This document shows positions 589 to 14,893 of a stretch of 14,893 nucleotides of DNA, one piece after another. Source of the stretch: a virus (lineage: Duplodnaviria > Heunggongvirae > Uroviricota > Caudoviricetes); IMG/VR virus record IMGVR_UViG_2737471841_000009, positions 1-14,893 of that record; one strand, 5' to 3'. The position numbers were made by a program, and so were the translations under genes. Numbering within the stretch: the stretch's first letter is position 1; every line of letters begins with the position of its first letter. Under the pieces are notes generated by a model. The model was given only the letters and a program-made list of their open reading frames with translations, searched no databases and was not told the DNA's origin.

Positions 589-1173
589 TTACTCCGGATA
601 TTTAAAAATTACGTAGGTATGAGACGGACAGAGTTTGTTAAGCACACATTCGACAACGGTGTCGCCCCAGATACGCAGTGCGGAATCACAGGGATCGCCA
701 CATGTCATCCAGGTGGTGTTTGTGGCGGCTGGCATGTTGACCTGCCAGTAATACCGCCATTCCGGCGCATTCACCGCGTCAGTACAGGCCGATGAGCAGG
801 TGAACGTGCTTTTGTCGTATCGCGTGATGGTAGCGTCTGGTCTGCCCAGGGCAGCAAGCTGTGCAAGATAAAAATTCTCGTTGATGCCGCCCGCCAGGTT
901 AACCTTCGCATCCAGCCGTTGCTGACGCTGGCGAAGGGTCTGTGTCCCTGCGGGAATACATTCATCCGGCAGACCGCACAGACGCTCCCAGCGGTTTATC
1001 AGTTCGGTGGTGGTGCGCGGATCCAGCTCCCGCATCAGGGCATCCGCACGCTGATGAACGCGGGTTAATGACGGTGCCGCACCGGCAATCGACGGATCGC
1101 TGGCTGACCACGCCGGACCGGGGGGCAACAGTGCCGACAACAGACGGATGTAATCATCGTTTGTCACGTCCAT
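589..1173 (-). CDS. Phage tail/baseplate protein, Mu gp48 / P2 gpI-like (same length as e14 YmfQ, 194 aa)
   Basis: 194-aa ORF with ATG at 1173. Its start overlaps the stop of the upstream J-like gene by 10 nt (ATGGACGTGA), indicating translational coupling. Position and size fit the gpI/gp48 slot. Family assignment is from recalled similarity. Confidence 0.55.
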
Positions 1174-2222
1174 GAAATCGTCCCCAGTACCGCCAGTTCA
1201 TTTTTTGCAATGGAGATATTGTCTGCCGGTGCAAGCAACTGATGGCTGTATTCCCCGTTCGCACCGGAAATCGCCTCACTGATACGCGATACCTTCAGTT
1301 CTCCCTGCGGATAACCATCACGCAGCAGGAACGAACGCAACTCCGCGGTGATGGCAGCCCGTATTTCCGGTGTGTCCGGCGTCACGCGGATATGAAAATC
1401 CACCGTATGTGCCACCGGCCTGAACACATACAAATCAGAGCCTGCCACCGGGGCCAGTGGCCCGATATGTTGTCTTGCCGCCGTTTCCGTTGATTCTTCC
1501 GGAATGGGATTAATCAGGTCACTGCTGGCAATCATCACACCGACAGTTCCCGTTCCCATCCAGTGACGGTATGTCCATGCGCGGGTAATGCCGGGCACTT
1601 CTTTAGCCCAGACGACATAGTCCCCGTCAGCCCCGCCCTGCGGCGTCCAGTAATACCGCTCAATGACGCGGGCGCGCCACGTTTCCAGCTCTTCAGTATC
1701 AAATCCGCCTGTCAGGGTGTCAGCCACACCGGAAGACGGCAGACCATTCACCGGCGTGACCAGGATTAATGCCGTACCGTCGTCAGCGTTACCGACCGCG
1801 CCTGCACTTGAGCAGGCGATCGGCACGCGCAGGACACCACCGGAGCTGGTTGCATCGGCAGTTGCCGTGTACTGAACCAGGTCATCGCGCTGAATAACAC
1901 TCCCGGCGGTCACCTTCAGGCCATCGCTGACACCTTCCCAGCGCATATACCCGCTGGCAGCCGTGGCCCCCTTGCGCGGACACCGTTTCATCGCAGCATG
2001 TCGCGCCAGCCAGGACTCATCGCACAGGTCAGGCAGCATGTTCATTGCCAGATAATCGATGTACCCGTAAACCGTATGCAGCGCCGCCGCATACACCTTT
2101 GCCCGCACGTCTTCATCCATGCGCCGGAGCGTGTCGCTGACGTCCAGCCTGGCGAATAAATCGTTACGGAGCATACTGATATTTTCTGCCAGCGTCGGGC
2201 GCTGAAATTCACTGTCCGCCAT
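1164..2222 (-). CDS. Baseplate J-like protein (Mu gp47 / P2 gpJ family)
   Basis: 352-aa ORF with ATG at 2222, overlapping the upstream gene by 14 nt. Size and synteny (between the gp46-like and gpI-like genes) fit the baseplate wedge protein. Confidence 0.6.
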
Positions 2223-2637
2223 GCGTTATCGCACTCCACAGATCATCAAAAGAAATCATTACCGGTCCGTCACGACGCCAGAGGGTGATACTGTTACCCA
2301 GTTCATTAATCCCGGTGCGGCGGATATCCAGATCAATACGGGACACCACGCCGTCATCAATCATCCATTGCAGGCATTCGCGGATATACCCCCTTACCGT
2401 CAGCACCAGCTGATTGGTCAGTTTGCTGCGCTGAAGCAGCCACAGTCGGGAGCCGTAACGGTCATTCTGTACCGCAGGCCAGGTATCCCCCCACCATCCC
2501 ATCGGGACGTCGGCGTTGTCATCAGGCTCCGCCCGCCGCCAGGTAAACAGGGAAATCACCACGGCGCGGGTCAGCGGATCCAGCGGTGCGCTGGCGCAGG
2601 TGCGTTTACCGTTCACCGTCAGCCACAGTTCCATCAT
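2209..2637 (-). CDS. Phage GP46-family baseplate protein (Mu gp46 / gpW-like)
   Basis: 142-aa ORF beginning ATGATG at 2637, with an ATGA overlap onto the upstream gene stop. Size and the motif GWWGDTW...GSRLWLL fit the GP46 family (recalled). Confidence 0.55.
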   Translation of the reverse strand: MMELWLTVNGKRTCASAPLDPLTRAVVISLFTWRRAEPDDNADVPMGWWGDTWPAVQNDRYGSRLWLLQRSKLTNQLVLTVRGYIRECLQWMIDDGVVSRIDLDIRRTGINELGNSITLWRRDGPVMISFDDLWSAITHGGQ

Positions 2638-3101
2638 GCCTCCATCGCTTTATCAGGTTTGTCGGTGTTACTGCCCTGACCGTTCTCTCTGTGACGATGC
2701 CCGTTATAGGCAAGCCGCATCGCTGACATGGTGGTGCCGCTGGAGTCGCACAGGTCTTTCACCTGTCCTGTCACTTCCAGGTCCATTTCAAAACGTGCTT
2801 TAGGTGAATTGCGAAACGTGATCGTTTTACCTGCACCGTCCACCACGATCCCCTCCCGGGTCAGCGTCACGGACTGCCCCTGATCGTCATAGACAGCCAC
2901 CTCACCCGTCTGCAGCCCTTTCAGGCGGTAGCGCCGGTCCGACACCGTAACAACCACCGCATGAGAACGGTCACCATCCGGAAACAACACCACCGCTTCC
3001 GCACCGCTGTTTGCTCTTGCGGTAAAACCGTAGGGTTCAAGATGTTCAACCCCGGCTTTGGGTTCCCGGCCATTTACCCGTAGCGTGACATTGTCGTTCA
3101 T
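2634..3101 (-). CDS. Small baseplate protein, gpV / Mu gp45-like (putative spike or hub component)
   Basis: 155-aa ORF with ATG at 3101 and an ATGA overlap onto the upstream gene. It sits between the DNA-circulation-like and gp46-like genes. Function is inferred mainly from synteny. Confidence 0.4.
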   Translation of the reverse strand: MNDNVTLRVNGREPKAGVEHLEPYGFTARANSGAEAVVLFPDGDRSHAVVVTVSDRRYRLKGLQTGEVAVYDDQGQSVTLTREGIVVDGAGKTITFRNSPKARFEMDLEVTGQVKDLCDSSGTTMSAMRLAYNGHRHRENGQGSNTDKPDKAMEA

Positions 3102-4252
3102 TGCACTGGCACCTTCAGAGGGATCACCGGCACAAAGCCGGGATGCGTAATGGCATTACGCCGGATAATGTCCGCGTCACGCGCCGCGTTATCAAACCAG
3201 GTCGCCGCCAGCACCAGCGCGGGTAAAACCTCATCCGGTGTGCGCTGAATGATCCGTGCAGACTGTTCAAGGCGCGTGTTGATATCCGCATTCAGATCTG
3301 CTTTCACCCGGCGCAGCGCCAGAAACAGCGCATCGCTGGTTGTACGGGACAACTCCTTATCAATTGCCGTATTCAGTGTGTCGCGAATGTCAGTCAGTTC
3401 TTCCCACGTCGGCAGGTCAACCGTGTTTTTCACCGCCGGTGCATTGTTCAGTGCCGGATGCGTGACGGAAGGCCAGCCAGTGCTCTGCGCGGGTGTTGTT
3501 GCCTGCCCCACTGCGGAATTCTGCATCACCGCGGAAGTTGTTGGCGCAGGCAATCGGGTGACGGCATACGCCGCTTCGCTGATTGCGGTTGTACGAAGGG
3601 TGCTGGCAACCACGTTACGCTGCTGCGTCGCCGTGGCGGTGGTTTTACTGTCCGTTTTCCAGACGCCGCGCGGTTGCAGATCGCTGCCGAGGCTGACACC
3701 GGAAAGCGTTTTGATCATGGTGACCAGGTCGCTGGCGTTACCATAAAGGCGTTTCCCGGTACGCCACATTTTCTGCACCTGCTCAACGAAATTTTTGCCT
3801 GACGATGGCGGCGGCAGAAGTACCGAGATATCCCCCTGCAACAGCCTGGCGGCATCCGATACGGCAGAATCCACCACTTTCATCGCATCAGAAACATACC
3901 CCAGCATTATGCTGGCATTACCGATAACGTCGTTCTGCACGAAATCCGCCACACCATCGATACTGAAACCGCTGAAGCTGTCACTGATGCAGTCATCCAG
4001 TGCAGAACAGGATGACATCAGCGTCTGCGCCGTCGCCGCACCTGATGTGGGGTAAGAGAGTTCTCCTGCTTCGACAAACTTCAGGTCAAAGCGGACAATA
4101 CGCCCTTCACTTTTCGATGTGCTGACCCGAACTTCCCCGTCAACACAGACTTTCAGCTCACCGTATGTCGGATGGACAAGCGTGCCGGGACCGGGTTTAT
4201 TCAGCGCGTCAATCAGGCGATCGCGCTGGTCAAAGCAGTCATCTCCCACCAC
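3098..4252 (-). CDS. Mu gp43-like 'DNA circulation' / baseplate hub family protein; 5' end apparently disrupted
   Basis: 384-aa ORF whose first codon at 4252 is GTG. The segment VVGDDCFDQRDRLIDALNKPGPGTLVHPTYGEL resembles the conserved core of the DNA-circulation N-terminal domain. The same frame stays open upstream to about 4340 with no SD or ATG, while a separate SD-preceded ATG ORF (4397-4239) lies in the +1 frame. Confidence 0.5.
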   Translation of the reverse strand: MVGDDCFDQRDRLIDALNKPGPGTLVHPTYGELKVCVDGEVRVSTSKSEGRIVRFDLKFVEAGELSYPTSGAATAQTLMSSCSALDDCISDSFSGFSIDGVADFVQNDVIGNASIMLGYVSDAMKVVDSAVSDAARLLQGDISVLLPPPSSGKNFVEQVQKMWRTGKRLYGNASDLVTMIKTLSGVSLGSDLQPRGVWKTDSKTTATATQQRNVVASTLRTTAISEAAYAVTRLPAPTTSAVMQNSAVGQATTPAQSTGWPSVTHPALNNAPAVKNTVDLPTWEELTDIRDTLNTAIDKELSRTTSDALFLALRRVKADLNADINTRLEQSARIIQRTPDEVLPALVLAATWFDNAARDADIIRRNAITHPGFVPVIPLKVPVQ

Positions 4253-4397
4253 ATAAGCCGTGATGGACGGGCGGAAAGTGACTTTTCCCAGATCTTCGGT
4301 ACGCGCCCCAGACGGTCGCCTCCACTGCGTCGCGGTTCTCCATCTTCTTCACTTCAGTAATGGCCTTGCGGGTTTTCTTTTTGAAAATACCAAACAT
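4239..4397 (-). other. 51-codon ORF (MFGIFKKKTRKAITEVKKMENRD...) out of frame with the downstream baseplate gene; possible remnant N-terminus or frameshifted 5' part
   Basis: ATG at 4397 preceded by AAGGA. The ORF ends at TGA 4239-4241, 13 nt inside the next ORF, which is in the +1 frame. Confidence 0.3.
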
Positions 4398-4535
4398 CGT
4401 GACTTTTCCTTTTAGTGGGTGAGCCTGCGCCCGGGGGTGACCAGCCCACAGAGAAAGTCACACTGACCATCCCGTAAGCTCACCCCTGAAAGGCTCTGTG
4501 GTTTTTTTGATGTGCGCCGGACGTGGCGCGGATAT

Positions 4536-4559
4536 AAAAAAGGCCCGCCGCAGCGAGCC
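4536..4559 (-). terminator. Intrinsic terminator downstream of the AraC-family gene
   Basis: On the minus strand a 7-bp GC-rich stem (GGCTCGC / GCGGGCC, one G-U pair) with a TGCG tetraloop is followed by T6 (plus-strand A6 at 4536-4541). It lies 26 nt after the stop at 4585. Confidence 0.6.
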
Positions 4560-4584
4560 TGTTTTCAATGAGTGCAAAATTCAA

Positions 4585-5328
4585 TTATTCTTGAGTAACA
4601 CTTAAACTCATCTCATTGAATGCAGCCATCCTGTAACCTGCCGGTGTAACACCAAAATAACTCCTGAATACGCTGATAAAATAAGATGTAAAATTATAGC
4701 CACACTGAGCAGCGATTCTGTTGATGGCGCAACGAGATTGATTCAACAGCATTGCTGCCATTCTCATTCTCTCTGTAAGCAACAACTCACTGAAACAGGT
4801 GCCTTCTTCTTTCAGTCTTTTTTTTAACAAACTTTCACTGATACATAACCGCGAAGACACATCTCTCAGAGTCCAGTTTGCTGCAATGTCCGTACGAAAC
4901 AATGCACTAAGCCTGTCACTAATATTGCCAATACACGCGGTCAGAAACGACGAAAACATTTTCTCTGATGAGAAAAACGCCAGACACGAAAAGGAAAGCA
5001 TTTCCGCTAAATTGTCCGTATGAATCTTTTCCTCACAAAGATAATCAATCAGGATGCCCATCAATTCTGCCTTGGGAAAACTCACGCAAAGATATCGTGG
5101 TATTTGCCGGACTAAAACTACATCCTGTTTTTCGTCTCCACACAACAGGTAACGGATAATTGTCGATTCACTGAGACTTATTCGCCGAAAACATTCCGAA
5201 AAGGGCAATAACGATCCAGCTCCCCCCCTGACAAGAAGTGCACTACCACTTTCCAGAGAGAGCTCTTTTCCTTCAAAGAGCACAACAAACGGGGAATGAA
5301 CAAAAACAACAGAACAAGCTTCATTCAT
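4585..5328 (-). CDS. AraC-family transcriptional regulator, AppY/Rns-like subfamily
   Basis: The C-terminal 100 aa show the AraC-type HTH signature (SESLLKKRLKEEGTCFSELL...CGYNFTSYFISVFRSYFGVTPAGY). The gene is visibly AT-rich compared with its flanks. ATG at 5328 is preferred over the TTG at 5388 used by the ORF track. Confidence 0.7.
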   Translation of the reverse strand: MNEACSVVFVHSPFVVLFEGKELSLESGSALLVRGGAGSLLPFSECFRRISLSESTIIRYLLCGDEKQDVVLVRQIPRYLCVSFPKAELMGILIDYLCEEKIHTDNLAEMLSFSCLAFFSSEKMFSSFLTACIGNISDRLSALFRTDIAANWTLRDVSSRLCISESLLKKRLKEEGTCFSELLLTERMRMAAMLLNQSRCAINRIAAQCGYNFTSYFISVFRSYFGVTPAGYRMAAFNEMSLSVTQE

Positions 5329-5450
5329 ATCAATTGCCCTGACATTACTGGTCACAAGATAAGTATATATCGATTTACAAAAATACAAGCCGAAAGACCA
5401 GTATTCGCAACCACCAGCGCGTTTAACGTCCTGTACCGTTTTTCAGGCAT

Positions 5451-5474
5451 AAAAAAACCCGCTCAGTGGCGGGT
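5451..5474 (-). terminator. Intrinsic terminator at the end of the cro operon
   Basis: Minus-strand hairpin ACCCGC-loop-GCGGGT followed by T7 (plus-strand A7 at 5451-5457), about 110 nt downstream of the stop at 5582. Confidence 0.5.
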
Positions 5475-5581
5475 TCTTAAATCTTATCAACGGTAGACAT
5501 ACAAAGCCCATCGTTGGAAAAATCTTATCCATATTTTTTGGAAAATGCAAGCATTATGTCGCCATCTTCGGCGAAAATCAT

Positions 5582-6247
5582 TTATCTCGTCACTTTTCTT
5601 AATTGCGCCTCAGCATATGCTTCTTCCTGCCAGCACTTTGTAACCAGTTTATCAATGACATCTGCATATCCTTTGTACCACTGATAATCTGTCAGGTCTG
5701 GTACCAGCTTCTGGACATGATGCCGCGCCAGTGTGGTTGGTAAACGGCTAAACCGGTTTCCATTGCAACGCCCACAAATCTTATAAACAGGCGTGCCATG
5801 AAGCCGGGTCCTTTTTTCATCCAGGACAATACCTTTACCCTTACACCCTCTGCACGCTGTGCTGACTTCTCCCTTACCATGACAATGCTGACATAGTTCC
5901 TTCAGCAGGCGCTGGTTTATATCGGCGTTCTCTACTTCCTCAATTTCAGGAAGCGATACGAACACCCCACCAGCAGACTGTGCGACAGCATCCGCAATGT
6001 AGTGAGTGCCAGCTGCGCGCTGTAAAACCATTGCCCATCCCAGCGGGAAAATCTGATCGCCATCGGCACGAAGGCGGTTAAATAATGCGCTCTCTGTTAC
6101 ATCCAGCCAGTCAGCAGCTTCAGCGTAACCCCCCGGCAACGCTGCGATAGTTTTTCTGACAGCTTTCACGTACCACTTAGGCTGTTTTTCTACTTTCCAG
6201 TGATGCTTACCCACGGCTATCTCCTTAAAACTGTGGTTACTTTTCAT
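5582..6247 (-). CDS. CII-position regulator (YdaT-like?) with a C-terminal Cys-rich zinc-ribbon
   Basis: ATG at 6247 overlaps the 3' end of the cro-like gene by 11 nt (the ORF track extends to a TTG at 6319). The gene occupies the cII/ydaT slot after cro. C-terminal motifs CQHCHGKGE, CRGCKGKG and CGRCNGNR are DnaJ-like CxxCxGxG repeats. Confidence 0.45.
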   Translation of the reverse strand: MKSNHSFKEIAVGKHHWKVEKQPKWYVKAVRKTIAALPGGYAEAADWLDVTESALFNRLRADGDQIFPLGWAMVLQRAAGTHYIADAVAQSAGGVFVSLPEIEEVENADINQRLLKELCQHCHGKGEVSTACRGCKGKGIVLDEKRTRLHGTPVYKICGRCNGNRFSRLPTTLARHHVQKLVPDLTDYQWYKGYADVIDKLVTKCWQEEAYAEAQLRKVTR

Positions 6248-6485
6248 CTGATGAATCTTTAATCTTTTGAAAAATATCTGGACGTAATTTTTCTTTTGAT
6301 ATGCCAGTGGTCTTTTCAATGAATATCGAGAGCTTTGCAGGGGGACGCTTTTCTCTGTTCAACCAGTTCCAGACATGTTGTTGCTTTACTAAATGACCGC
6401 TGCTGGCTGTGAGCTTCCGAGCCAATTCTGATTGACCACCAGCCAGAGCGATTGCCTCCGATAAGGCTAATTGCTCAGGTGTCAT
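6237..6485 (-). CDS. Cro-like repressor (YdaS / Cro-CI HTH family)
   Basis: 82-aa ORF with ATG at 6485 preceded by AAGGAG. It is transcribed divergently from the CI-like gene across an operator-rich intergenic region. The sequence (QSELARKL...LRPD) resembles the YdaS-type Cro family. Confidence 0.65.
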   Translation of the reverse strand: MTPEQLALSEAIALAGGQSELARKLTASSGHLVKQQHVWNWLNREKRPPAKLSIFIEKTTGISKEKLRPDIFQKIKDSSDEK

Positions 6486-6620
6486 AGCTTTCTCCTTTTT
6501 AGGTAGTTAAGTTGTTACGAGTTGCAAGAATACAACATTAACAACTTTTATCACAACTTTTAGGTGTTGGAAAGCTAAAACATAAAGTTGTAACCTCATC
6601 AAAAAAGAGAGGGATATGTT
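6486..6620. promoter_or_regulatory. OR-like divergent promoter and operator region between cro and cI
   Basis: 135-bp AT-rich intergenic region with repeated half-site-like motifs: AAGTTGT at 6509 and 6585; ACAACTT at 6541 and 6553; AGGTGTT at 6562. The 11-mer CATAAAGTTGT (6581-6591) recurs at OL (8234-8244). Confidence 0.65.
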
Positions 6621-7307
6621 GTGAAAACACTGGCAGAACGATTAAAGATAGGTAGAGAGAAAGCTGGCATGAGCCAAGCTCAACTAGCTGAAAAAATTGG
6701 ACTTTCACAACAATCTGTAGCCAAAATAGAGAATGGCGAAACTCTACAACCGCGCAAAATTAAAGAAATTGCAAAAGTTTTAGGTGTATCACAAAAGTGG
6801 TTACAACTTGGTATTGAAGACAACGCATCCATACCTGATCTTGTTGTAAAAGAAGCAGAAAGCACCGCATTAGACCCCGATATTTTCGTAAACATTCCTG
6901 TTTTAGATGTCGAGTTATCGGCAGGTAACGGATGTCTGGCTGAAATAGTTGAATCAGCTATTGACTGGTTTCCGTTAAGAAGAGCAGATTTGAGAAAATC
7001 TGGCGTATGTGCATCTAATGCCAAGATCGTAAAAATATGGGGGAACAGTTTATTACCGGTTCTCAATAATGGAGATCTTGTTGCCGTTGATATTTCTCAA
7101 ACCGTTCCTATTCGTGATGGCGATCTTTATGCCGTACGAGATGGTGTATTGCTAAGGGTTAAAATACTTATCAACTTACCTGACGGTGGCTTGATTCTTA
7201 GAAGCTTCAACAAAGATGAGTACCCAGATGAAATACTCACCTTTGAAGATAGACGAGCCAGAATTCATGTTATAGGTAGGGTATTCTGGTCATCGCGAAC
7301 TTGGTAA
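6621..7307 (+). CDS. CI-like prophage repressor (XRE-type HTH plus S24 LexA-like autopeptidase domain)
   Basis: GTG start at 6621 preceded by GAGAGGG. N-terminal HTH (MSQAQLAEKIGLSQQSVAKIENGE). An Ala-Gly candidate cleavage site (LSAGNG) and a Ser/Lys dyad (WGNSLLP and LLRVK) are present. Confidence 0.85.
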   Translation: MKTLAERLKIGREKAGMSQAQLAEKIGLSQQSVAKIENGETLQPRKIKEIAKVLGVSQKWLQLGIEDNASIPDLVVKEAESTALDPDIFVNIPVLDVELSAGNGCLAEIVESAIDWFPLRRADLRKSGVCASNAKIVKIWGNSLLPVLNNGDLVAVDISQTVPIRDGDLYAVRDGVLLRVKILINLPDGGLILRSFNKDEYPDEILTFEDRRARIHVIGRVFWSSRTW

Positions 7308-8180
7308 TGCATCGAAAAGCATTTCTTCAGAAATAATTTTAAGTTTTGCACCATTATCATCCCTATAAGATATAGCCTTTTCGATCTTCCTTCCGTGACT
7401 TGAGAATTTCCAATCACGGGAGGAAAGCGTCCCAATTACTAAAAAATCCAACTTTTGAGTAATTCCACTACTGATGTTCCCACCAGCATTTTTAATCAAA
7501 TTTTCAACTACGGCTCTCTTTCCTGCAACAAAAGTGCCTGTAAGACAATAGGTTTTACCCTCTAACTCTATCGAAGCCCCTACATCAATAGGCAGCCTGG
7601 TCGCCAAACCATCCACCACCCCACTTTCCAAGTCACATCCTGTGAAGTCTACTAATGCCTTATGTAGAGTTAAACTCTCATCTTCAGTAATAACACCATC
7701 TTTAAGAATTTCCTTTACAAGTGCATAAAGTTTTTTTCCTGGGTAGTTGTTCTTCAAAGCTCCATTTTGCTCAAGCCACCAATTAAGATATCTTATTTCT
7801 TCTTGAGTTAAGTTCCGATCAGCAATTAATCCTTTACATAGTCCATTAAGTAAATGGACATCTACATCCTTGGAGTAAAAATCAATTTCAGGGATATCAA
7901 GAATTTCCCTCTGTATTTGGAGAAGGCTATTTTTAAGGTCATCACGTTCTTCTGATGTGATTATTCCATCCGCAAGAATATCCGACACCCGTGCTGATAG
8001 ACTTTTTATAACTCCATTATTGATAATCTGCTTTGCTTCAAGTAACCATGTATCTAAGTAAAGAACCTCCTCTTCACGGACAACTCCATCTGCAATGATT
8101 CCATCAATGATGCTAATCAAGTTAGCAAATAACTTGTCCCGGTTCTGTGTGTAATTAAAAGCGTAAAGCGCGTCTTCCAT
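7290..8180 (-). CDS. Moron protein: four tandem ~40-aa repeats plus a C-terminal BRCT domain; candidate exclusion or defence effector
   Basis: ATG at 8180 preceded by AGGAGG (the ORF track extends to a GTG at 8210). Repeats centre on IIADGVVREEEVLYL, ILADGIITSEERDDL, LIADRNLTQEEIRYL and ILKDGVITEDESLTL. The C-terminus (GKTYCLTGTF...LDFLVIGT...KLKIISEEMLFDAL) matches the BRCT fold pattern of LigA-type BRCT domains. Confidence 0.8.
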   Translation of the reverse strand: MEDALYAFNYTQNRDKLFANLISIIDGIIADGVVREEEVLYLDTWLLEAKQIINNGVIKSLSARVSDILADGIITSEERDDLKNSLLQIQREILDIPEIDFYSKDVDVHLLNGLCKGLIADRNLTQEEIRYLNWWLEQNGALKNNYPGKKLYALVKEILKDGVITEDESLTLHKALVDFTGCDLESGVVDGLATRLPIDVGASIELEGKTYCLTGTFVAGKRAVVENLIKNAGGNISSGITQKLDFLVIGTLSSRDWKFSSHGRKIEKAISYRDDNGAKLKIISEEMLFDALPSSR

Positions 8181-8230
8181 ACAACCTCCTTTTTTTGATA
8201 ATCCTTGCACTCCTTGGCTACTCGTTCAAA

Positions 8231-9450: not shown

Positions 9451-9470
9451 ATATGATGAGGAGCAGCAAA

Positions 9471-9833
9471 ATGGCTAGCGAACGCAGTACTGATGTGCAG
9501 GCATTTATCGGGGAGCTGGACGGCGGCGTATTTGAAACCAAAATCGGCGCAGTTCTCAGTGAAGTCGCTTCCGGTGTGATGAACACGAAAACCAAAGGTA
9601 AGGTCTCACTCAACCTGGAAATCGAACCATTTGATGAGAACCGTGTGAAAATCAAACACAAACTCTCATATGTTCGCCCGACTAACCGCGGGAAAATTTC
9701 CGAAGAAGACACCACCGAAACGCCGATGTATGTCAATCGCGGTGGTCGCCTGACTATTCTGCAGGAAGACCAGGGACAATTACTGACTCTTGCCGGTGAA
9801 CCTGACGGAAAACTCCGCGCAGCAGGTCATTAA
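9471..9833 (+). CDS. yfdP: YfdP-like prophage protein (120 aa)
   Basis: ATG at 9471 preceded by GAGGAG; length and sequence match my recollection of K-12 CPS-53 YfdP. The ORF track's upstream extension (from 9153) lies in GC-rich non-coding-looking sequence and is rejected. Confidence 0.6.
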   Translation: MASERSTDVQAFIGELDGGVFETKIGAVLSEVASGVMNTKTKGKVSLNLEIEPFDENRVKIKHKLSYVRPTNRGKISEEDTTETPMYVNRGGRLTILQEDQGQLLTLAGEPDGKLRAAGH

Positions 9834-9898
9834 TATCGTTCTTAATTAACTGATTATTTATCTCATCACTGAATATCTTTATATAGTGAGGACTTATT

Positions 9899-10723
9899 AT
9901 GTCTCAGAACTTAGACGCAACCGCAATTAATCAAATCCATGCCCTTATTTCTGCTCAGGGTGTTAATGAAATTATCAGTAAGATTGGTGCCGATGCTGTG
10001 GCATTGCCTGAGAATTTCCGCATTCATGATCTGGAAAAATTTAATTTAAATCGCTTCCGTTTCCGTGGTGCGCTTTCCACTGCCAGCATCGATGACTTTA
10101 CCCGTTATTCTAAAGATCTTGCAGATGAAGGCACCCGCTGCTTTATCGATGCTGATAATATGCGTGCCGTCAGTGTGCTTAACCTGGGTACTATTGATGA
10201 ACCAGGTCACGCAGATAACACCGCCACTCTCAAACTGAAAAAGACAGCACCGTTCTCTGCTCTGTTGTCTGTTAATGGCGAGCGTAACTCCCAGAAATCA
10301 CTGGCAGAATGGATTGAAGACTGGGCCGACTACCTTGTGGGCTTTGATGCTAATGGTGACACCATTCAGGCAACAAAAGCGGCTGCGGCGGTCCGTAAAA
10401 TCACGATTGAAGCAAACCAGACCGCTGATTTTGAAGATAATGACTTCAGCGGCAAACGCTCCCTGATGGAGTCTGTCGAAGCGAAGACCAAAGACATTAT
10501 GCCAGTGGCATTTGAATTTAAATGCATTCCGTTTGAAGGTCTGAAAGAACGTCCGTTTAAATTACGCCTCAGCATTATCACTGGCGATCGTCCGGTACTG
10601 GTTCTGCGCATTATTCAGCTGGAGGCGGTGCAGGAAGAAATGGCTAACGAATTTCGTGATCTGCTTGTTGAGAAATTCAAGGACAGCAAAGTAGAAACCT
10701 TTATTGGTACTTTCACCGCCTGA
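9899..10723 (+). CDS. yfdQ: YfdQ-like prophage protein (274 aa, uncharacterised DUF family)
   Basis: ATG at 9899 preceded by GTGAGGA. Length and N-terminus ([17 protein letters not shown]) match recalled K-12 YfdQ. Colinear with the yfdP to yfdT order. Confidence 0.7.
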
Positions 10724-12045: not shown

Positions 12046-12395
12046 TGGAGCCATACAGCCTCACACTCGATGAGGCCTGTCATTTTCTCAAGATATCCAG
12101 ACCGACTGCCATTAACTGGATACGCACAGGGCGTCTTCAGGCAACACGCAAAGATCCCACTAAGAATAAATCTCCTTACCTCACAACACGACAAGCCTGC
12201 ATTGCGGCTCTTCAGTCTCCGCTGCATACTGTCCAGGTGAGCGCGGGTGATGGCATAACAGAGGAAAGAAAATGTCACTCTTCCGCAGAAGTGAAATATG
12301 GTACGCCAGTTTCACATTGCCGAACGGTAAAAGATTTAAACAGTCTCTTGGAACAAAGGACAAAAGGCAGGCGACAGAGCTCCATGACAAGCTAA
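12045..12395 (+). CDS. xis: Excisionase (P22 Xis-like, 116 aa)
   Basis: ATG at 12045 preceded by AAGAGGTGA. N-terminal HTH ([26 protein letters not shown]). 116 aa matches the P22 Xis length. Sits immediately upstream of int and overlaps it by 124 nt. Confidence 0.7.
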
Positions 12396-13435
12396 AGGCT
12401 GAAGCATGGCGGGTCAGCAAACTTGGTGAAATACCTGATATGACGTTTGAGGAAGCGTGTGTCAGGTGGCTCGAAGAGAAAGCACATAAGAAATCACTGG
12501 ACGATGACAAAAGCCGGATCGGATTCTGGCTTCAACATTTCGCAGGGATGCAACTAAGAGACATCACTGAATCAAAAATTTATTCAGCGATGCAGAAAAT
12601 GACAAACCGGCGTCATGAGGAAAACTGGAAACTCAGGGCAGAAGCATGCAGAAAAAAAGGGAAACCTGTTCCAGAATACACGCCAAAACCAGCGTCCGTT
12701 GCAACGAAGGCTACGCATCTTTCATTTATAAAGGCCCTGCTAAGAGCCGCAGAGCGTGAATGGAAAATGCTGGATAAGGCACCAATTCTTAAAGTGCCTC
12801 AACCGAAGAATAAACGTATCCGCTGGCTGGAGCCTCATGAAGCACAAAGGCTGATTGATGAATGTCCGGAGCCATTAAAGTCTGTTGTTGAATTTGCACT
12901 GGCAACAGGCTTAAGACGCTCGAACATCATCAACCTTGAATGGCAACAAATAGACATGCAGCGCCGGGTGGCATGGATAAACCCGGAAGAGAGTAAATCA
13001 AACCGCGCAATTGGCGTTGCGCTGAATGATACTGCATGTCGCGTATTGAAAAAACAAATCGGGAATCATCACCGTTGGGTATTTGTATACAAGGAAAGCT
13101 GTACCAAACCAGACGGAACGAAAGCGCCAACGGTCAGGAAGATGCGGTATGACGCAAACACAGCCTGGAAAGCGGCGCTGAGACGAGCAGGTATTGATGA
13201 TTTCAGATTTCACGACTTGAGACACACCTGGGCAAGTTGGCTGGTTCAAGCCGGAGTCCCGTTGTCAGTGTTACAGGAAATGGGAGGCTGGGAGTCTATC
13301 GAAATGGTTCGTCGATATGCTCACCTCGCACCTAATCACCTTACCGAACATGCACGGCAAATAGACTCGATCCTGAACCCATCGGTCCCAAATTTGTCCC
13401 AGTCAAAAAATAAGGAAGGTACTAATGATGTGTAA
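12272..13435 (+). CDS. int: Tyrosine-recombinase integrase (P22 Int-like, 387 aa)
   Basis: C-terminal catalytic region [15 protein letters not shown]...VRRYAHL (R/H-x-x-R/Y signature). The gene ends 14 nt from the 3' end of thrW, the known P22 attachment tRNA. Length equals P22 Int. Confidence 0.85.
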
Positions 13436-13470
13436 CTTATTGATTTAAATGGTGCCGATAATAGGAGTCG
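13436..13470. other. Prophage–host junction (att core region) at the 3' end of thrW
   Basis: The interval between the int stop and the 3' part of the tRNA; tRNA-integrating phages carry the core homology over the tRNA 3' end. Exact core limits cannot be set without the other prophage end. Confidence 0.4.
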
Positions 13471-13525
13471 AACCTACGACCTTCGCATTACGAATGCGCT
13501 GCTCTACCAACTGAGCTATATCGGC
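13450..13525 (-). tRNA. thrW: tRNA-Thr (anticodon CGU), 76 nt with encoded CCA
   Basis: Reverse complement reads GCCGATATAGCTCAGTTGGTAGAGCAGCGCATTCGTAATGCGAAGGTCGTAGGTTCGACTCCTATTATCGGCACCA. Acceptor stem GCCGATA/TATCGGC, anticodon loop TTCGTAA, T-loop GGTTCGACTCC. Adjacent to proA as in E. coli. Confidence 0.93.
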
Positions 13526-13639: not shown

Positions 13640-14893
13640 TTACGCACGAATGGTGTAATCACCAATGCCGATCCACTTGTAAGTGGTCAGTGCTTCCAGC
13701 CCCATTGGGCCACGCGCGTGGAGTTTTTGTGTGCTTACCGCCACTTCCGCACCCAGACCAAACTGGCCGCCGTCGGTAAAACGCGTAGAGGCGTTAACGT
13801 AAACAGCGGACGAATCCACTTCGTTAACAAAACGCTGGGCGTTGCGCATATCGCGGGTCAGGATCGCATCGGAGTGTTGTGTGCCGTGTTCACGAATATG
13901 GGCGATGGCATCGTCAAGATCGCTGACGATTTTGACGTTCAAATCTAATGACAGAAACTCATCGTCATACTCTTCGGCTTTAACAGCAACCACCTTCGCA
14001 GGGCCTGCCTGCAACTGCGCCAGTGCAGCTGCATCTGCGTGTAATGTCACGCCGCTTTCCGCCATTTGTTTGCTTAATGCGGGCAGGAAGCTATCGGCGA
14101 TGTTTTTATTCACCAGCAACGTTTCAACCGTATTACATGTGCTCGGACGCTGAGTTTTCGCGTTGACGATCACTTTTAATGCTTCAGCGATCTCTACACT
14201 TTCATCAACGTAAATATGGCATACGCCTATACCACCTGTGATCACCGGGATTGTCGACTGTTCACGGCACAGTTTATGCAAACCAGCGCCACCACGCGGG
14301 ATCAGCATGTCGATGTATTTATCCATACGCAGCATTTCACTGACCAGCGCACGGTCAGGATTATCAATCGCCTGCACGGCACCCGCCGGTAAGCCGCAGG
14401 ATTTCAGGGCGTCCTGAATCACCGCCACCGTTGCAGCGTTAGTGCGACACGTTTCTTTGCCACCGCGCAGGATCACCGCATTACCGGTTTTCAGGCACAG
14501 CGAAGCGACATCAACCGTCACGTTCGGGCGCGCTTCATAAATCACGCCAATAACCCCCAGCGGTACGCGACGACGCTCAAGACGCAGGCCGCTGTCCAGT
14601 ACGCTGCCATCGATTACCTGCCCCACCGGATCGGCGAGGTTACACACCTGGCGCACATCATCGGCAATGCCTTTCAGCCGTGCGGGCGTCAGTGCCAGAC
14701 GGTCAAGCATCGCTTCGCCAAGGCCATTGGCACGCGCGTCAGCAACATCCTGGGCGTTAGCGTTGAGGATGATTTCGCTTTGTGCTTCCAGTTCATCGGC
14801 GATTTTTTCCAGCACGCGATTTTTTTCGCGGCTGGAGAGTTGCGCTAATTTATACGAGGCTTGCTTCGCGGCAATGCCCATTTGTTCCAGCAT
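13640..14893 (-). CDS. proA: Gamma-glutamyl phosphate reductase (glutamate-5-semialdehyde dehydrogenase)
   Basis: 417-aa ORF whose ATG is the last three bases of the window. Sequence matches my recollection of E. coli ProA ([50 protein letters not shown]...). Confidence 0.93.

What the first reader, a model, noticed from the sequence alone, without database searches (positions are those of the whole stretch)
4585..5328. AT-rich AppY/Rns-like AraC-family regulator wedged between the immunity module and tail genes
The gene is far more AT-rich than its neighbours and has its own intrinsic terminator (4536-4559). It encodes an AraC-type HTH regulator of the AppY/EnvY/Rns-like subfamily, whose members typically activate acid-resistance, envelope or virulence genes. 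Here it occupies the place where replication, lysis and head genes would be expected, so it looks like horizontally acquired regulatory cargo that could act on host genes in trans.
Basis: partly seen in the sequence, partly recalled or inferred. Interest (0 to 1): 0.45.

Follow-up and report, generated by a model that had tools for sequence, protein, structure and literature searches.

The report
Prophage-borne AraC regulator in decayed prophage
This is an intact but uncharacterised AraC-type regulator gene that lambda-like E. coli phages carry as a self-contained cargo cassette just after their late antiterminator gene; here it survives in a heavily deleted prophage, so it is an ordinary new member of a well-known class.

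Summary

It lies in a 968-bp cassette (4508-5475) bounded by two terminators. In all 18 other contexts examined, the cassette sits between a late antiterminator Q gene and the holin/lysis genes of a lambdoid prophage. This is the Q-to-lysis cargo ("moron") slot that stx2 also occupies in phage phiSTEC1575-Stx2k.

So the gene did not replace the replication, lysis and head genes. It is in its native place, and deletions removed what lay around it:
- a ymfL'::'Q in-frame fusion at about 5903;
- a terB-family stub joined at 4300/4301 to a 5'-truncated tail gene.

It is AT-rich (41.7% GC) only against the tail genes (56-58%). The immunity genes are as AT-rich (38-42%).

By sequence it forms its own small E. 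coli lineage. It is 36-39% identical to YdeO, GadW and the probable PatE, and 30% to AppY. EnvY, AdiY and GadX match in the C-terminal half, and Rns over a slightly longer C-terminal stretch.

A trans-acting role on host acid-resistance promoters is a reasonable inference from homology, but it is untested. This is a new member of a known kind and of low to moderate interest.

The parts
4585..5328 (-). Intact AraC/XylS-family regulator gene (247 aa): N-terminal beta-rich regulatory domain plus C-terminal double helix-turn-helix
   Evidence: ORF. Pfam HTH_18 and HTH_AraC above cut-off. 100% identical to WP_001345622.1. AlphaFold mean pLDDT 88.5. The DNA-binding domain superposes on the GadX DNA-binding domain at 1.0 A, 42% identity. 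dN/dS 0.30 against a 91%-identical variant.
4535..4560 (-). Intrinsic terminator following the AraC stop codon (stem 4541-4560, then a T-run)
   Evidence: Consensus scan. Fold -19.3 kcal/mol, z = -2.5. Conserved in 6 of 7 other contexts.
5329..5446 (-). Conserved 5' leader of the cassette. It holds a Shine-Dalgarno AGGG at 5337-5340 and a candidate weak -10 (TATACT, 5362-5367). No strong sigma-70 consensus promoter.
   Evidence: Nearly invariant in 7 copies, including the roughly 89-91%-identical W13-16 variant. The promoter scan found no minus-strand site at its threshold. The -10 assignment is by eye and is inference only.
5447..5475 (-). Terminator-like hairpin (AACCCGC-CACTGA-GCGGGTT plus a T-run) between the Q remnant and the AraC gene. 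It marks the tR'-like boundary of the cassette.
   Evidence: Fold -16 kcal/mol, z = -2.9. Similarity to different Q modules ends here and similarity between AraC cassettes begins here. The simple terminator scan did not list it.
4508..5475 (-). The mobile cargo (moron) cassette: upstream terminator, leader, AraC gene, downstream terminator
   Evidence: 99.9% identical over exactly this span to EC11 and VG35A2 prophages. The contexts diverge outside it.
5476..5581 (-). Region downstream of Q with a pR'-like promoter candidate (TTGCAT, 17 nt, TAAGAT at about 5521-5549). Inferred late promoter.
   Evidence: Lies within a 91.6%-identical blastn match (window 5451-5904) to the sequence downstream of the Q gene of the O157:H7 thrW prophage. 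Assigned by position only; below the promoter scan threshold.
5582..6319 (-). Chimeric ORF: N-terminal part of the CII-like YmfL fused in frame to the C-terminal 112 residues of antiterminator Q. Deletion scar at about 5903; probably non-functional.
   Evidence: Pfam Antiterm at residues 150-237 plus Phage_CP76 at 52-155. NCBIfam YmfL. 93% identical to Q residues 139-250. Over the stretch corresponding to YmfL residues 1-~103 the match is near-identical, within an alignment of 61% overall. The DNA breakpoints correspond to a gap of about 5.6 kb in the O157 prophage.
4299..4397 (-). Stub (first 33 codons) of a TerB-family gene that follows the AraC cassette in 08-00022/GB089-type prophages
   Evidence: 33 of 33 residues identical to WP_065225042.1. 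Window 4300-4503 matches GB089 DNA at 97%.
3098..4300 (-). DNA-circularisation (Mu gp43-like) tail gene lacking its first 42 codons. Deletion junction at 4300/4301.
   Evidence: 99% identical to residues 43-442 of the 442-aa protein of strain USMARC-49610. Pfam DNA_circ_N matched only from profile position 55. DNA match ends at 4301.

Best explanation
The gene is the payload of a 968-bp lambdoid-phage cargo (moron) cassette: upstream terminator, conserved leader, AraC-type regulator gene, downstream terminator.

The cassette's native position is the slot between the late antiterminator gene Q (with its pR'/tR' region) and the holin/lysis genes. In this window it is still in that position, inside a prophage integrated at thrW next to proA. 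That prophage has since lost three things:
- its replication/nin region, through a deletion that fused ymfL to the 3' part of Q;
- its lysis, head and most tail genes, through a deletion that joined a terB-family stub to a 5'-truncated tail gene;
- part of its baseplate module.

The protein has a beta-rich N-terminal domain and a double helix-turn-helix. It belongs to the E. coli radiation of small AraC regulators that includes YdeO, GadW, AppY and the prophage-encoded PatE, but it forms a separate, uncharacterised lineage.

Most likely it is made in the lysogen from a weak promoter in its own leader. The upstream hairpin would insulate it from pR' transcription, and no functional Q is left here. 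Most likely it also acts in trans as a transcriptional activator at AT-rich host promoters. The best guess for targets is the acid-fitness island (gadE, hdeA, gadW), as with its characterised relatives.

Shown: the gene, the cassette, its boundaries, its native context, the deletion scars and the family placement.
Inferred: the promoter, the insulation, activity as an activator, and the target genes.
For: Gene and domains.

Cassette boundaries: 99.9% identity over exactly 4508-5475 to EC11 and VG35A2, with flanks diverging at the two hairpins.

Native context: in 8 complete-genome loci and 10 further places that encode the identical protein, the gene lies downstream of a Q-type antiterminator. 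The Q types seen are PF06530 Q, PF03589 Antiterm and DUF1133. In 17 of these 18 loci holin genes lie downstream in the same orientation. In GB089 an IS66 element follows the gene and no holin is within the fetched stretch. Sometimes one other cargo gene or an IS lies in between.

Distant paralogues use the same slot in isolated phages: Lambda_2G7a has Q, blc, ybgA-like, AraC, holin; phiSTEC1575-Stx2k has Q, AraC, tRNAs, stx2AB, holin.

Deletion scars. thrW lies at 13450-13525.

Family placement:
- The best NCBIfam match is YdeO over the full length, at 147 bits against a 348-bit cut-off.
- phrog_1450 matches over the full length.
- Pairwise identities. In the NJ tree the protein has its own clade with P0003-P0005, with P0104 as a distant neighbour.
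- Only one 50%-identity cluster and 8 clusters with E below 1e-30 were found among 1.84 billion representatives.

Purifying selection: dN/dS 0.30, and 18 of 18 examined copies are intact.

Recognition-helix motifs SESLLKK(R/K)LK and SYFISVFR are shared with YdeO, GadW and the PatE-like proteins.

Relatives act on the GAD regulon: AppY binds gadE directly, and PatE and PsrB act at hdeA and gadE. Z0321 (patE) is RpoS-dependent.
Against: - No experiment or expression data exist for this lineage. Every database name is generic.
- Identity to any characterised regulator is at most 39%, so the target set could differ.
- No sigma-70 consensus promoter was found in the leader or at the putative pR'. 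The promoter calls are by eye.
- The upstream hairpin was not picked up by the simple terminator scan, although it folds well.
- Some copies in other strains are truncated or split: P0006 (158 aa, 61 member sequences) and H65, annotated as fragments. The gene is therefore dispensable in some hosts.
- The identification of the O157 thrW-prophage AraC gene as PatE/Z0321 rests on position (OI-8/CP-933H), not on a sequence labelled as such.
Confidence: 0.7

Rival explanations
1. The regulator serves the phage rather than the host. It would control late or lysis gene expression or the lysis-lysogeny decision in cis, and in this remnant it is an orphan with no remaining targets.
For: It always lies in the late operon between Q and the holin genes, in the same orientation, so Q-antiterminated transcription would include it in intact prophages.
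Against: - It is present in only 65 of 5426 genomes, whereas related prophage backbones are far more widespread: 1042 of 5426 genomes match part of the wider 4400-5600 stretch and every genome matches part of the window.
- It is combined with at least three unrelated Q types and several lysis cassettes, which is not expected of a core phage regulator.
- It is bracketed by its own terminators.
- Characterised relatives act on host regulons.
Confidence: 0.1
2. The gene is inert baggage. It would be transcriptionally silent (for example H-NS-silenced, or lacking a working promoter once cut off from Q-dependent transcription) and simply not yet mutated in this recently decayed prophage.
For: - No consensus promoter was found.
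- The Q gene is destroyed here.
- The ORF is 100% identical to copies in intact prophages, so little time has passed since divergence.
- Truncated copies exist elsewhere.
Against: - It is the only intact gene between two deletion scars.
- The lineage evolves under purifying selection (dN/dS 0.11-0.36).
- The leader is conserved even in the roughly 89-91%-identical variant.
- The relative PatE is well expressed and RpoS-dependent.
Confidence: 0.15
3. One reading: an independently acquired AT-rich island that was inserted into the prophage and displaced the replication, lysis and head genes.
For: GC drops from 56-58% to 41.7% at the left junction. The gene has its own terminator.
Against: - The GC step marks the junction between two phage modules brought together by deletion, not an insertion. 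The right flank and the immunity region are equally AT-rich.
- Both flanks are truncated phage genes whose full-length forms exist elsewhere.
- The Q-to-AraC order is the native one in 18 of 18 other loci.
Confidence: 0.05

Closest known systems
PatE (Z0321, prophage CP-933H / O-island 8 of E. coli O157:H7 EDL933)
   Same: [quoted passage not shown] Like this gene, it is carried by a prophage cluster at thrW/proA. PatE activates gadB, gadC, gadE and hdeAB and is RpoS-dependent.
   Different: Only 39% identical, and in a different clade of the tree. The O157 gene lies at the far end of the prophage, beyond the tail-fibre and pin genes, not between Q and holin. That the O157 gene I compared is PatE is inferred from its location, not verified by a labelled sequence.
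YdeO (E. coli K-12, EvgAS-YdeO-GadE acid-resistance circuit)
   Same: The best curated-family match, over the full length (NCBIfam NF007407, residues 2-230). 37% identical. Same size and two-domain layout.
   Different: The score of 147 bits is far below the 348-bit equivalog cut-off. YdeO is a chromosomal gene beside safA and ydeP, not phage cargo.
AppY (DLP12 cryptic prophage, E. coli K-12)
   Same: A prophage-encoded AraC/XylS regulator retained in a decayed lambdoid prophage. It acts in trans on host genes, including gadE.
   Different: Only 30% identical. AppY groups with GadW rather than with this lineage. It lies after the tail-fibre remnants, next to ompT, at the prophage end.
GadW / GadX (acid fitness island)
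   Same: GadW is 36% identical over the full length. The GadX DNA-binding domain (PDB 3mkl) is 42-43% identical and superposes on the model at about 1.0 A.
   Different: Both are chromosomal island genes. GadX matches only the C-terminal half, at 98 bits against a 500-bit cut-off.
Rns / CsvR / ToxT virulence activators
   Same: The best full-length structural matches to the model (Foldseek E about 1e-11 to 1e-8). They share the same two-domain architecture.
   Different: About 20% identity. TM-score is only about 0.42 over the full length, with a different domain orientation. The sequence match is confined to residues 87-231. Whether a fatty-acid pocket like that of Rns or ToxT exists was not tested.
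Cargo genes in the lambdoid late-operon slot between Q/tR' and the lysis genes (stx2AB in phiSTEC1575-Stx2k, blc in Lambda_2G7a)
   Same: Same slot and orientation, own terminator, and patchy distribution among related phages. In phiSTEC1575-Stx2k a 36%-identical paralogue sits in this slot just upstream of stx2AB.
   Different: The payload here is a transcription factor rather than a toxin or surface protein. Its own promoter is not demonstrated.

Membership tests
AraC/XylS family of transcription regulators | C-terminal DNA-binding domain of about 100 aa with two helix-turn-helix motifs (Pfam PF12833 / PF00165) | tested here: met
   HTH_18 51.6 bits (cut-off 33.6) and HTH_AraC 49.9 bits (cut-off 26.6) at residues 158-233. 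The model's DNA-binding domain superposes on GadX, MarA and AraC DNA-binding domains.
YdeO (NCBIfam equivalog NF007407) | Score at or above the curated equivalog cut-off (348 bits) | tested here: not met
   146.9 bits over residues 2-230. 37% identity.
GadX (NCBIfam equivalog NF007432) | Score at or above the curated cut-off (500 bits), with a full-length match | tested here: not met
   98.1 bits, residues 111-234 only.
AppY orthologue | High full-length identity to, and clustering with, K-12 AppY | tested here: not met
   30% identity over 233 aa. AppY pairs with GadW in the NJ tree, apart from this lineage.
EnvY / AdiY group | Full-length similarity, including the N-terminal domain | tested here: not met
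   BLASTP aligns only the C-terminal 123-127 residues. Both are on the outgroup side of the tree.
Rns/CfaD/ToxT-type virulence activators | Sequence membership, and a fatty-acid-binding pocket between the two domains | tested here: inconclusive
   The fold-level architecture matches (Foldseek E 6e-12) but at 20% identity and TM 0.42. The sequence match covers only residues 87-231. Pocket residues were not examined.
PatE / PsrA / PsrB (EHEC prophage-encoded AraC-like regulators of the GAD system) | Orthology to Z0321, Z1789 or Z2104 | tested here: inconclusive
   39% identity to the O157 thrW-prophage AraC that is probably PatE, which falls in a different clade. No labelled PsrA or PsrB sequences were available; the papers that describe them were not held.
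PatE / PsrA / PsrB / AppY functional class | Activates gadE, hdeA or other acid-resistance genes in trans | not testable with these tools
   Only homology and shared recognition-helix motifs are available.
Lambdoid phage cargo cassette (moron) | A discrete insert between conserved phage genes, present in some and absent in other related phages | tested here: met
   Found in 65 of 5426 genomes. The thrW prophages of other strains lack it, with similarity ending at 5451-5489. The cassette span is identical next to different Q and lysis modules.
Lambdoid phage cargo cassette (moron) | Own transcription terminator downstream | tested here: met
Lambdoid phage cargo cassette (moron) | Own promoter upstream, allowing expression from the repressed prophage | tested here: inconclusive
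   No consensus hit on the minus strand. There is a conserved leader with a candidate TATACT -10. A 5' end mapping experiment is needed.
Lambdoid phage cargo cassette (moron) | Base composition different from the flanking phage genes | tested here: inconclusive
   41.7% GC against 47% for the Q remnant and 56-58% for the tail genes, but equal to the immunity genes at 38-42%.

The most novel reading that the evidence does not exclude
This lineage may be a regulator whose output is tied to prophage induction. It always sits directly behind tR' in the late operon. Q-mediated antitermination could therefore flood induced cells with an AraC-type activator, as it does with Shiga toxin, and reprogramme host acid-resistance or virulence genes in the induced subpopulation. 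In decayed prophages like this one, the gene would have been captured by the host as a stand-alone stationary-phase regulator with a regulon distinct from those of YdeO, GadW, AppY and PatE.
Probability: 0.12. Interest if true: 0.5.

Novelty: new member of a known kind. Interest (0 to 1): 0.25.

Why it matters
Prophage-encoded AraC-like regulators (AppY, PatE, PsrA, PsrB) are known to rewire E. coli acid resistance and type III secretion. This gene adds one more uncharacterised lineage to that set. It is found mostly in bovine, farm and food isolates and in some STEC and ETEC strains, and here it survives intact in a prophage that has lost nearly everything else around it. If it does activate the GAD system, it would contribute to strain-to-strain differences in acid survival. 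For genome annotation, the practical point is that the odd position is explained by deletions around a native cargo slot, not by a special insertion event.

Tried and rejected
1. I tried to read the primary PatE and PsrB papers (PMC3416394, PMC4288888). Neither is held, so PatE identity rests on the O-island 8/CP-933H location, and PsrA and PsrB could not be placed in the tree.
2. I tried to fetch the EDL933 record NC_002655 to get Z-number tags. It is not in the collection.
3. I searched the literature for 'CP-933H' with 'thrW'. No papers were found.
4. I looked up cluster members hoping for informative names. Only generic 'AraC family' or 'helix-turn-helix domain-containing' names came back.
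5. The consensus promoter scan of 4200-6700 gave no minus-strand promoter. The promoter proposals are therefore marked as inference.
6. An Rfam scan of the whole window found only tRNA-Thr and no known regulatory RNA in the Q-AraC spacer.
7. A protein search of the isolated-phage collection found no phage carrying this lineage (best 40% identity). I used the distant paralogues only to show that the same slot is used.
8. I rejected the idea that the gene is a pseudogene or misannotated ORF. It is intact in 18 of 18 copies examined, dN/dS is about 0.3, and the model is confident.
9. I rejected 'AT-rich island inserted into a GC-rich prophage', because the early region is equally AT-rich.
10. A PADLOC scan of the AraC protein found no match to defence-system models.

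Full report
**1. What the window is.** The right end carries proA (13640-14893, minus strand) and tRNA-Thr(CGT), thrW, at 13450-13525. A tyrosine integrase gene (12272-13435) follows. After it come yfdT/S/R/Q-like early genes, a BRCT-domain gene (7290-8210, minus), a cI-type repressor with an S24 peptidase domain (6621-7307, plus) and a cro-like gene (6237-6485, minus). The left 4.3 kb encodes Mu/P2-like baseplate and tail proteins. The window is therefore an E. coli prophage integrated at thrW. Every one of 5426 complete E. coli genomes matches part of it, but none covers 80% of it.

**2. The observation.** The ORF at 4585-5328 (minus strand) is real and intact. It has 247 codons from the ATG at 5328. 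PGAP calls the same 744-nt gene in 100%-identical copies. The N-terminus aligns residue for residue with those of YdeO, GadW and AppY. Pfam HTH_18 and HTH_AraC match above their cut-offs. The terminator reported at 4536-4559 is confirmed: stem at 4541-4560 with a T-run, -19.3 kcal/mol, conserved in other copies.

The composition claim is only half right. The gene has 41.7% GC. The tail genes on its left have 56-58%, but the Q remnant has 47%, and cro, cI and the BRCT gene have 42, 40 and 38%.

**3. The gene belongs to a discrete cassette.** Local BLAST of the window against fetched loci shows 99.9% identity over exactly 4508-5475 to prophages of strains EC11 and VG35A2. Slightly different end points (4486-4537 on the left, 5459-5515 on the right) appear in other strains.

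The right boundary is a hairpin with a T-run at 5447-5475 on the minus strand (-16 kcal/mol, z = -2.9). Upstream of it the sequences of different copies are unrelated or only partly related. From it down to the ATG they are nearly invariant, even in the roughly 89-91%-identical W13-16 variant. The left boundary lies about 30 nt beyond the downstream terminator. The unit is therefore terminator, leader, gene, terminator.

**4. Native context.** I looked at eight complete-genome loci and ten further places that encode the identical protein. In all of them the gene lies downstream of a late antiterminator gene. Three different types were seen: PF06530 Q, PF03589 Antiterm and DUF1133. In 17 of the 18 loci holin/endolysin genes lie downstream in the same orientation. 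In GB089 an IS66 element follows the gene and no holin lies in the fetched stretch. Sometimes one extra cargo gene (ORF6N, a DNA methyltransferase, a TerB-family gene plus DUF3927) or an IS element sits in between. This is the lambdoid cargo (moron) slot.

Distant paralogues (36-37% identity) occupy the same slot in isolated phages. Lambda_2G7a has Q, blc, a ybgA-like gene, AraC, holin. phiSTEC1575-Stx2k has Q, AraC, three tRNAs, stx2AB, holin. Other paralogues, like AppY and the O157 gene, sit after the tail-fibre genes.

The cassette is present in 65 of 5426 complete genomes, always on chromosomes and at varied positions. The exact protein is indexed in 3921 blocks of the assembly collection. 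No isolated phage in the phage collection carries this lineage.

**5. Why it lies next to tail genes here.** The ORF at 5582-6319 is a chimera. Its residues 36-~139 correspond to YmfL residues 1-~103, with a near-identical match over that stretch. Its residues 134-245 match residues 139-250 of the 250-aa antiterminator of the O157 thrW prophage at 93% identity. The DNA breakpoint at about 5903 corresponds to a gap of about 5.6 kb in that prophage, which there holds the replication, PerC, methylase, RusA, KilA-N and DUF968 genes.

On the other side, window 4300-4503 continues the 08-00022/GB089-type sequence found downstream of the cassette. It encodes the first 33 residues (33 of 33 identical) of a 141-aa TerB-family protein. 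At 4300/4301 this abuts a DNA-circularisation gene that lacks its first 42 codons and is 99% identical from residue 43. A third deletion of about 1.15 kb, with a 10-bp overlap at 3064-3073, removed a baseplate gene.

The gene has therefore not taken the place of the replication, lysis and head genes. They were deleted on either side of a cassette that stayed put and stayed intact.

**6. What the protein is.** NCBIfam's best hit is YdeO over the full length, but at 147 bits against a 348-bit cut-off. GadX, HilD and the others match only the C-terminal half. PHROG 1450 (function unknown) matches over the full length.

Pairwise identities are as follows:

| Protein | Identity |
|---|---|
| O157 thrW-prophage AraC (probable PatE) | 39% |
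| YdeO | 37% |
| GadW | 36% |
| AppY | 30% |
| GadX, AdiY, EnvY | C-terminal domain only |

A profile search recovered a radiation of unnamed AraC proteins at 30-42% identity. Where a source gives a name, it is E. coli. In an NJ tree the window protein forms its own clade with P0003-P0005 (75-85% identity), with P0104 as a distant neighbour. It is separate from the PatE-like, YdeO-like and GadW/AppY branches, and EnvY, AdiY and GadX fall on the outgroup side. This tree is a simple distance tree without support values.

Among 1.84 billion 50%-identity representatives, only one cluster exceeds 50% identity and only eight score below E = 1e-30.

The AlphaFold model (mean pLDDT 88.5) has a beta-rich N-terminal domain, a helical linker and a double helix-turn-helix. 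Its best full-length structural neighbours are Rns, CsvR and ToxT, at about 20% identity and TM about 0.42. The DNA-binding domain superposes on that of GadX at 1.0 A.

The two recognition-helix motifs (SESLLKKRLK and SYFISVFR) are near-identical to those of YdeO, GadW and the PatE-like proteins. dN/dS against the 91%-identical variant is 0.30, and all 18 examined copies are intact. Truncated or split copies exist in other strains.

**7. How it most likely works.**
- Shown: a self-contained cassette bracketed by terminators, in the late-operon cargo slot.
- Inferred: in an intact prophage, pR' transcripts stop at the 5447-5475 hairpin unless Q modifies RNA polymerase, so the gene would be co-induced with lysis. 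In the lysogen, and in this remnant where Q is destroyed, expression must come from the conserved leader.
- The consensus scan finds no sigma-70 promoter there. By eye there is a TATACT at 5362-5367 in the context ATATACTTAT. From my own memory of the literature, this resembles sigma-S -10 regions. It is a lead, not a result. PatE/Z0321 is RpoS-dependent.
- By homology, the protein is expected to activate AT-rich host promoters. The acid-fitness island (gadE, hdeA, gadW) is the best guess, because AppY, PatE, PsrB, YdeO and GadW all converge there. None of this is tested.

**8. Comparison and novelty.** This is one more prophage-encoded AraC-like regulator of the AppY/PatE/Psr kind. It is an orthologue of none of the ones I could compare. 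It fails the YdeO and GadX equivalog cut-offs and does not cluster with AppY. PsrA and PsrB could not be compared because no labelled sequences were available. It counts as a new member of a known kind. Its location, composition and terminator are all ordinary features of a lambdoid cargo cassette. Interest is low to moderate. The one point worth following up is that it stays intact between two deletion scars, which hints at domestication but is also compatible with recent decay.

Noticed in passing
window 5582-6319 (junction at about 5903): In-frame chimera of the N-terminal ~103 residues of the CII-like protein YmfL and the C-terminal 112 residues of antiterminator Q. It was created by a deletion of about 5.6 kb covering the replication/nin region. 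It keeps the Q zinc-finger-like CxxC motifs but lacks the N-terminal half of Q.
   Followed up: yes
window 3064-3073: Another deletion scar of about 1.15 kb relative to strain USMARC-49610, with a 10-bp overlap between the two matching segments. It removes nearly all of a baseplate assembly gene and the 5' end of the gpV-like gene.
   Followed up: partly
window 7290-8210 (minus strand), beside cI: A 306-aa protein with a C-terminal BRCT domain (Pfam, 28.8 bits). It matches PHROG 3989 (unknown function) over the full length and has a weak hit to the PADLOC candidate defence family PDC-S48 (E 2.7e-7). It is very AT-rich (38% GC) and sits next to the repressor gene, so it could be a superinfection-exclusion or defence gene.
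   Followed up: partly
L011 (strain GB089) 650-3413, corresponding to window 4496-4503: An IS66-family element is inserted just downstream of the AraC cassette in GB089. The two flanking matches to the window overlap by 8 bp (4496-4503), consistent with an 8-bp target-site duplication.
   Followed up: partly
L027 (phage phiSTEC1575-Stx2k) 3001-3714: A 36%-identical paralogue of this AraC regulator lies in the Q-to-holin slot directly upstream of the tRNA genes and stx2AB of a Stx2k-converting phage. There, a regulator of this family is co-transcribed with Shiga toxin genes.
   Followed up: no
L019 and L020 (CP057152.1, about 2.79 Mb and about 2.99 Mb): One genome carries the identical AraC protein twice, in two different lambdoid prophages with different Q types (PF06530 and PF03589). 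EC11 also has two matching places.
   Followed up: no
L014 (strain 08-00022) 9455-10213; L020 9307-10080: Prophages carrying this cassette also carry adhesin-type cargo elsewhere: the AcfC-family adhesin Paa in 08-00022 and a K88-type fimbrial protein in L020. Many carriers are bovine, farm or food isolates, STEC or porcine ETEC.
   Followed up: no
window 5476-5581 vs L001 14039-14170: The stretch between the Q stop codon and the tR'-like hairpin lies within a 91.6%-identical match to the O157:H7 thrW prophage. It contains a conserved TTGCAT, 17 nt, TAAGAT/TAATAT element. This is probably pR' plus the Q-utilisation site, which would give a short terminated transcript of about 50-60 nt.
   Followed up: partly
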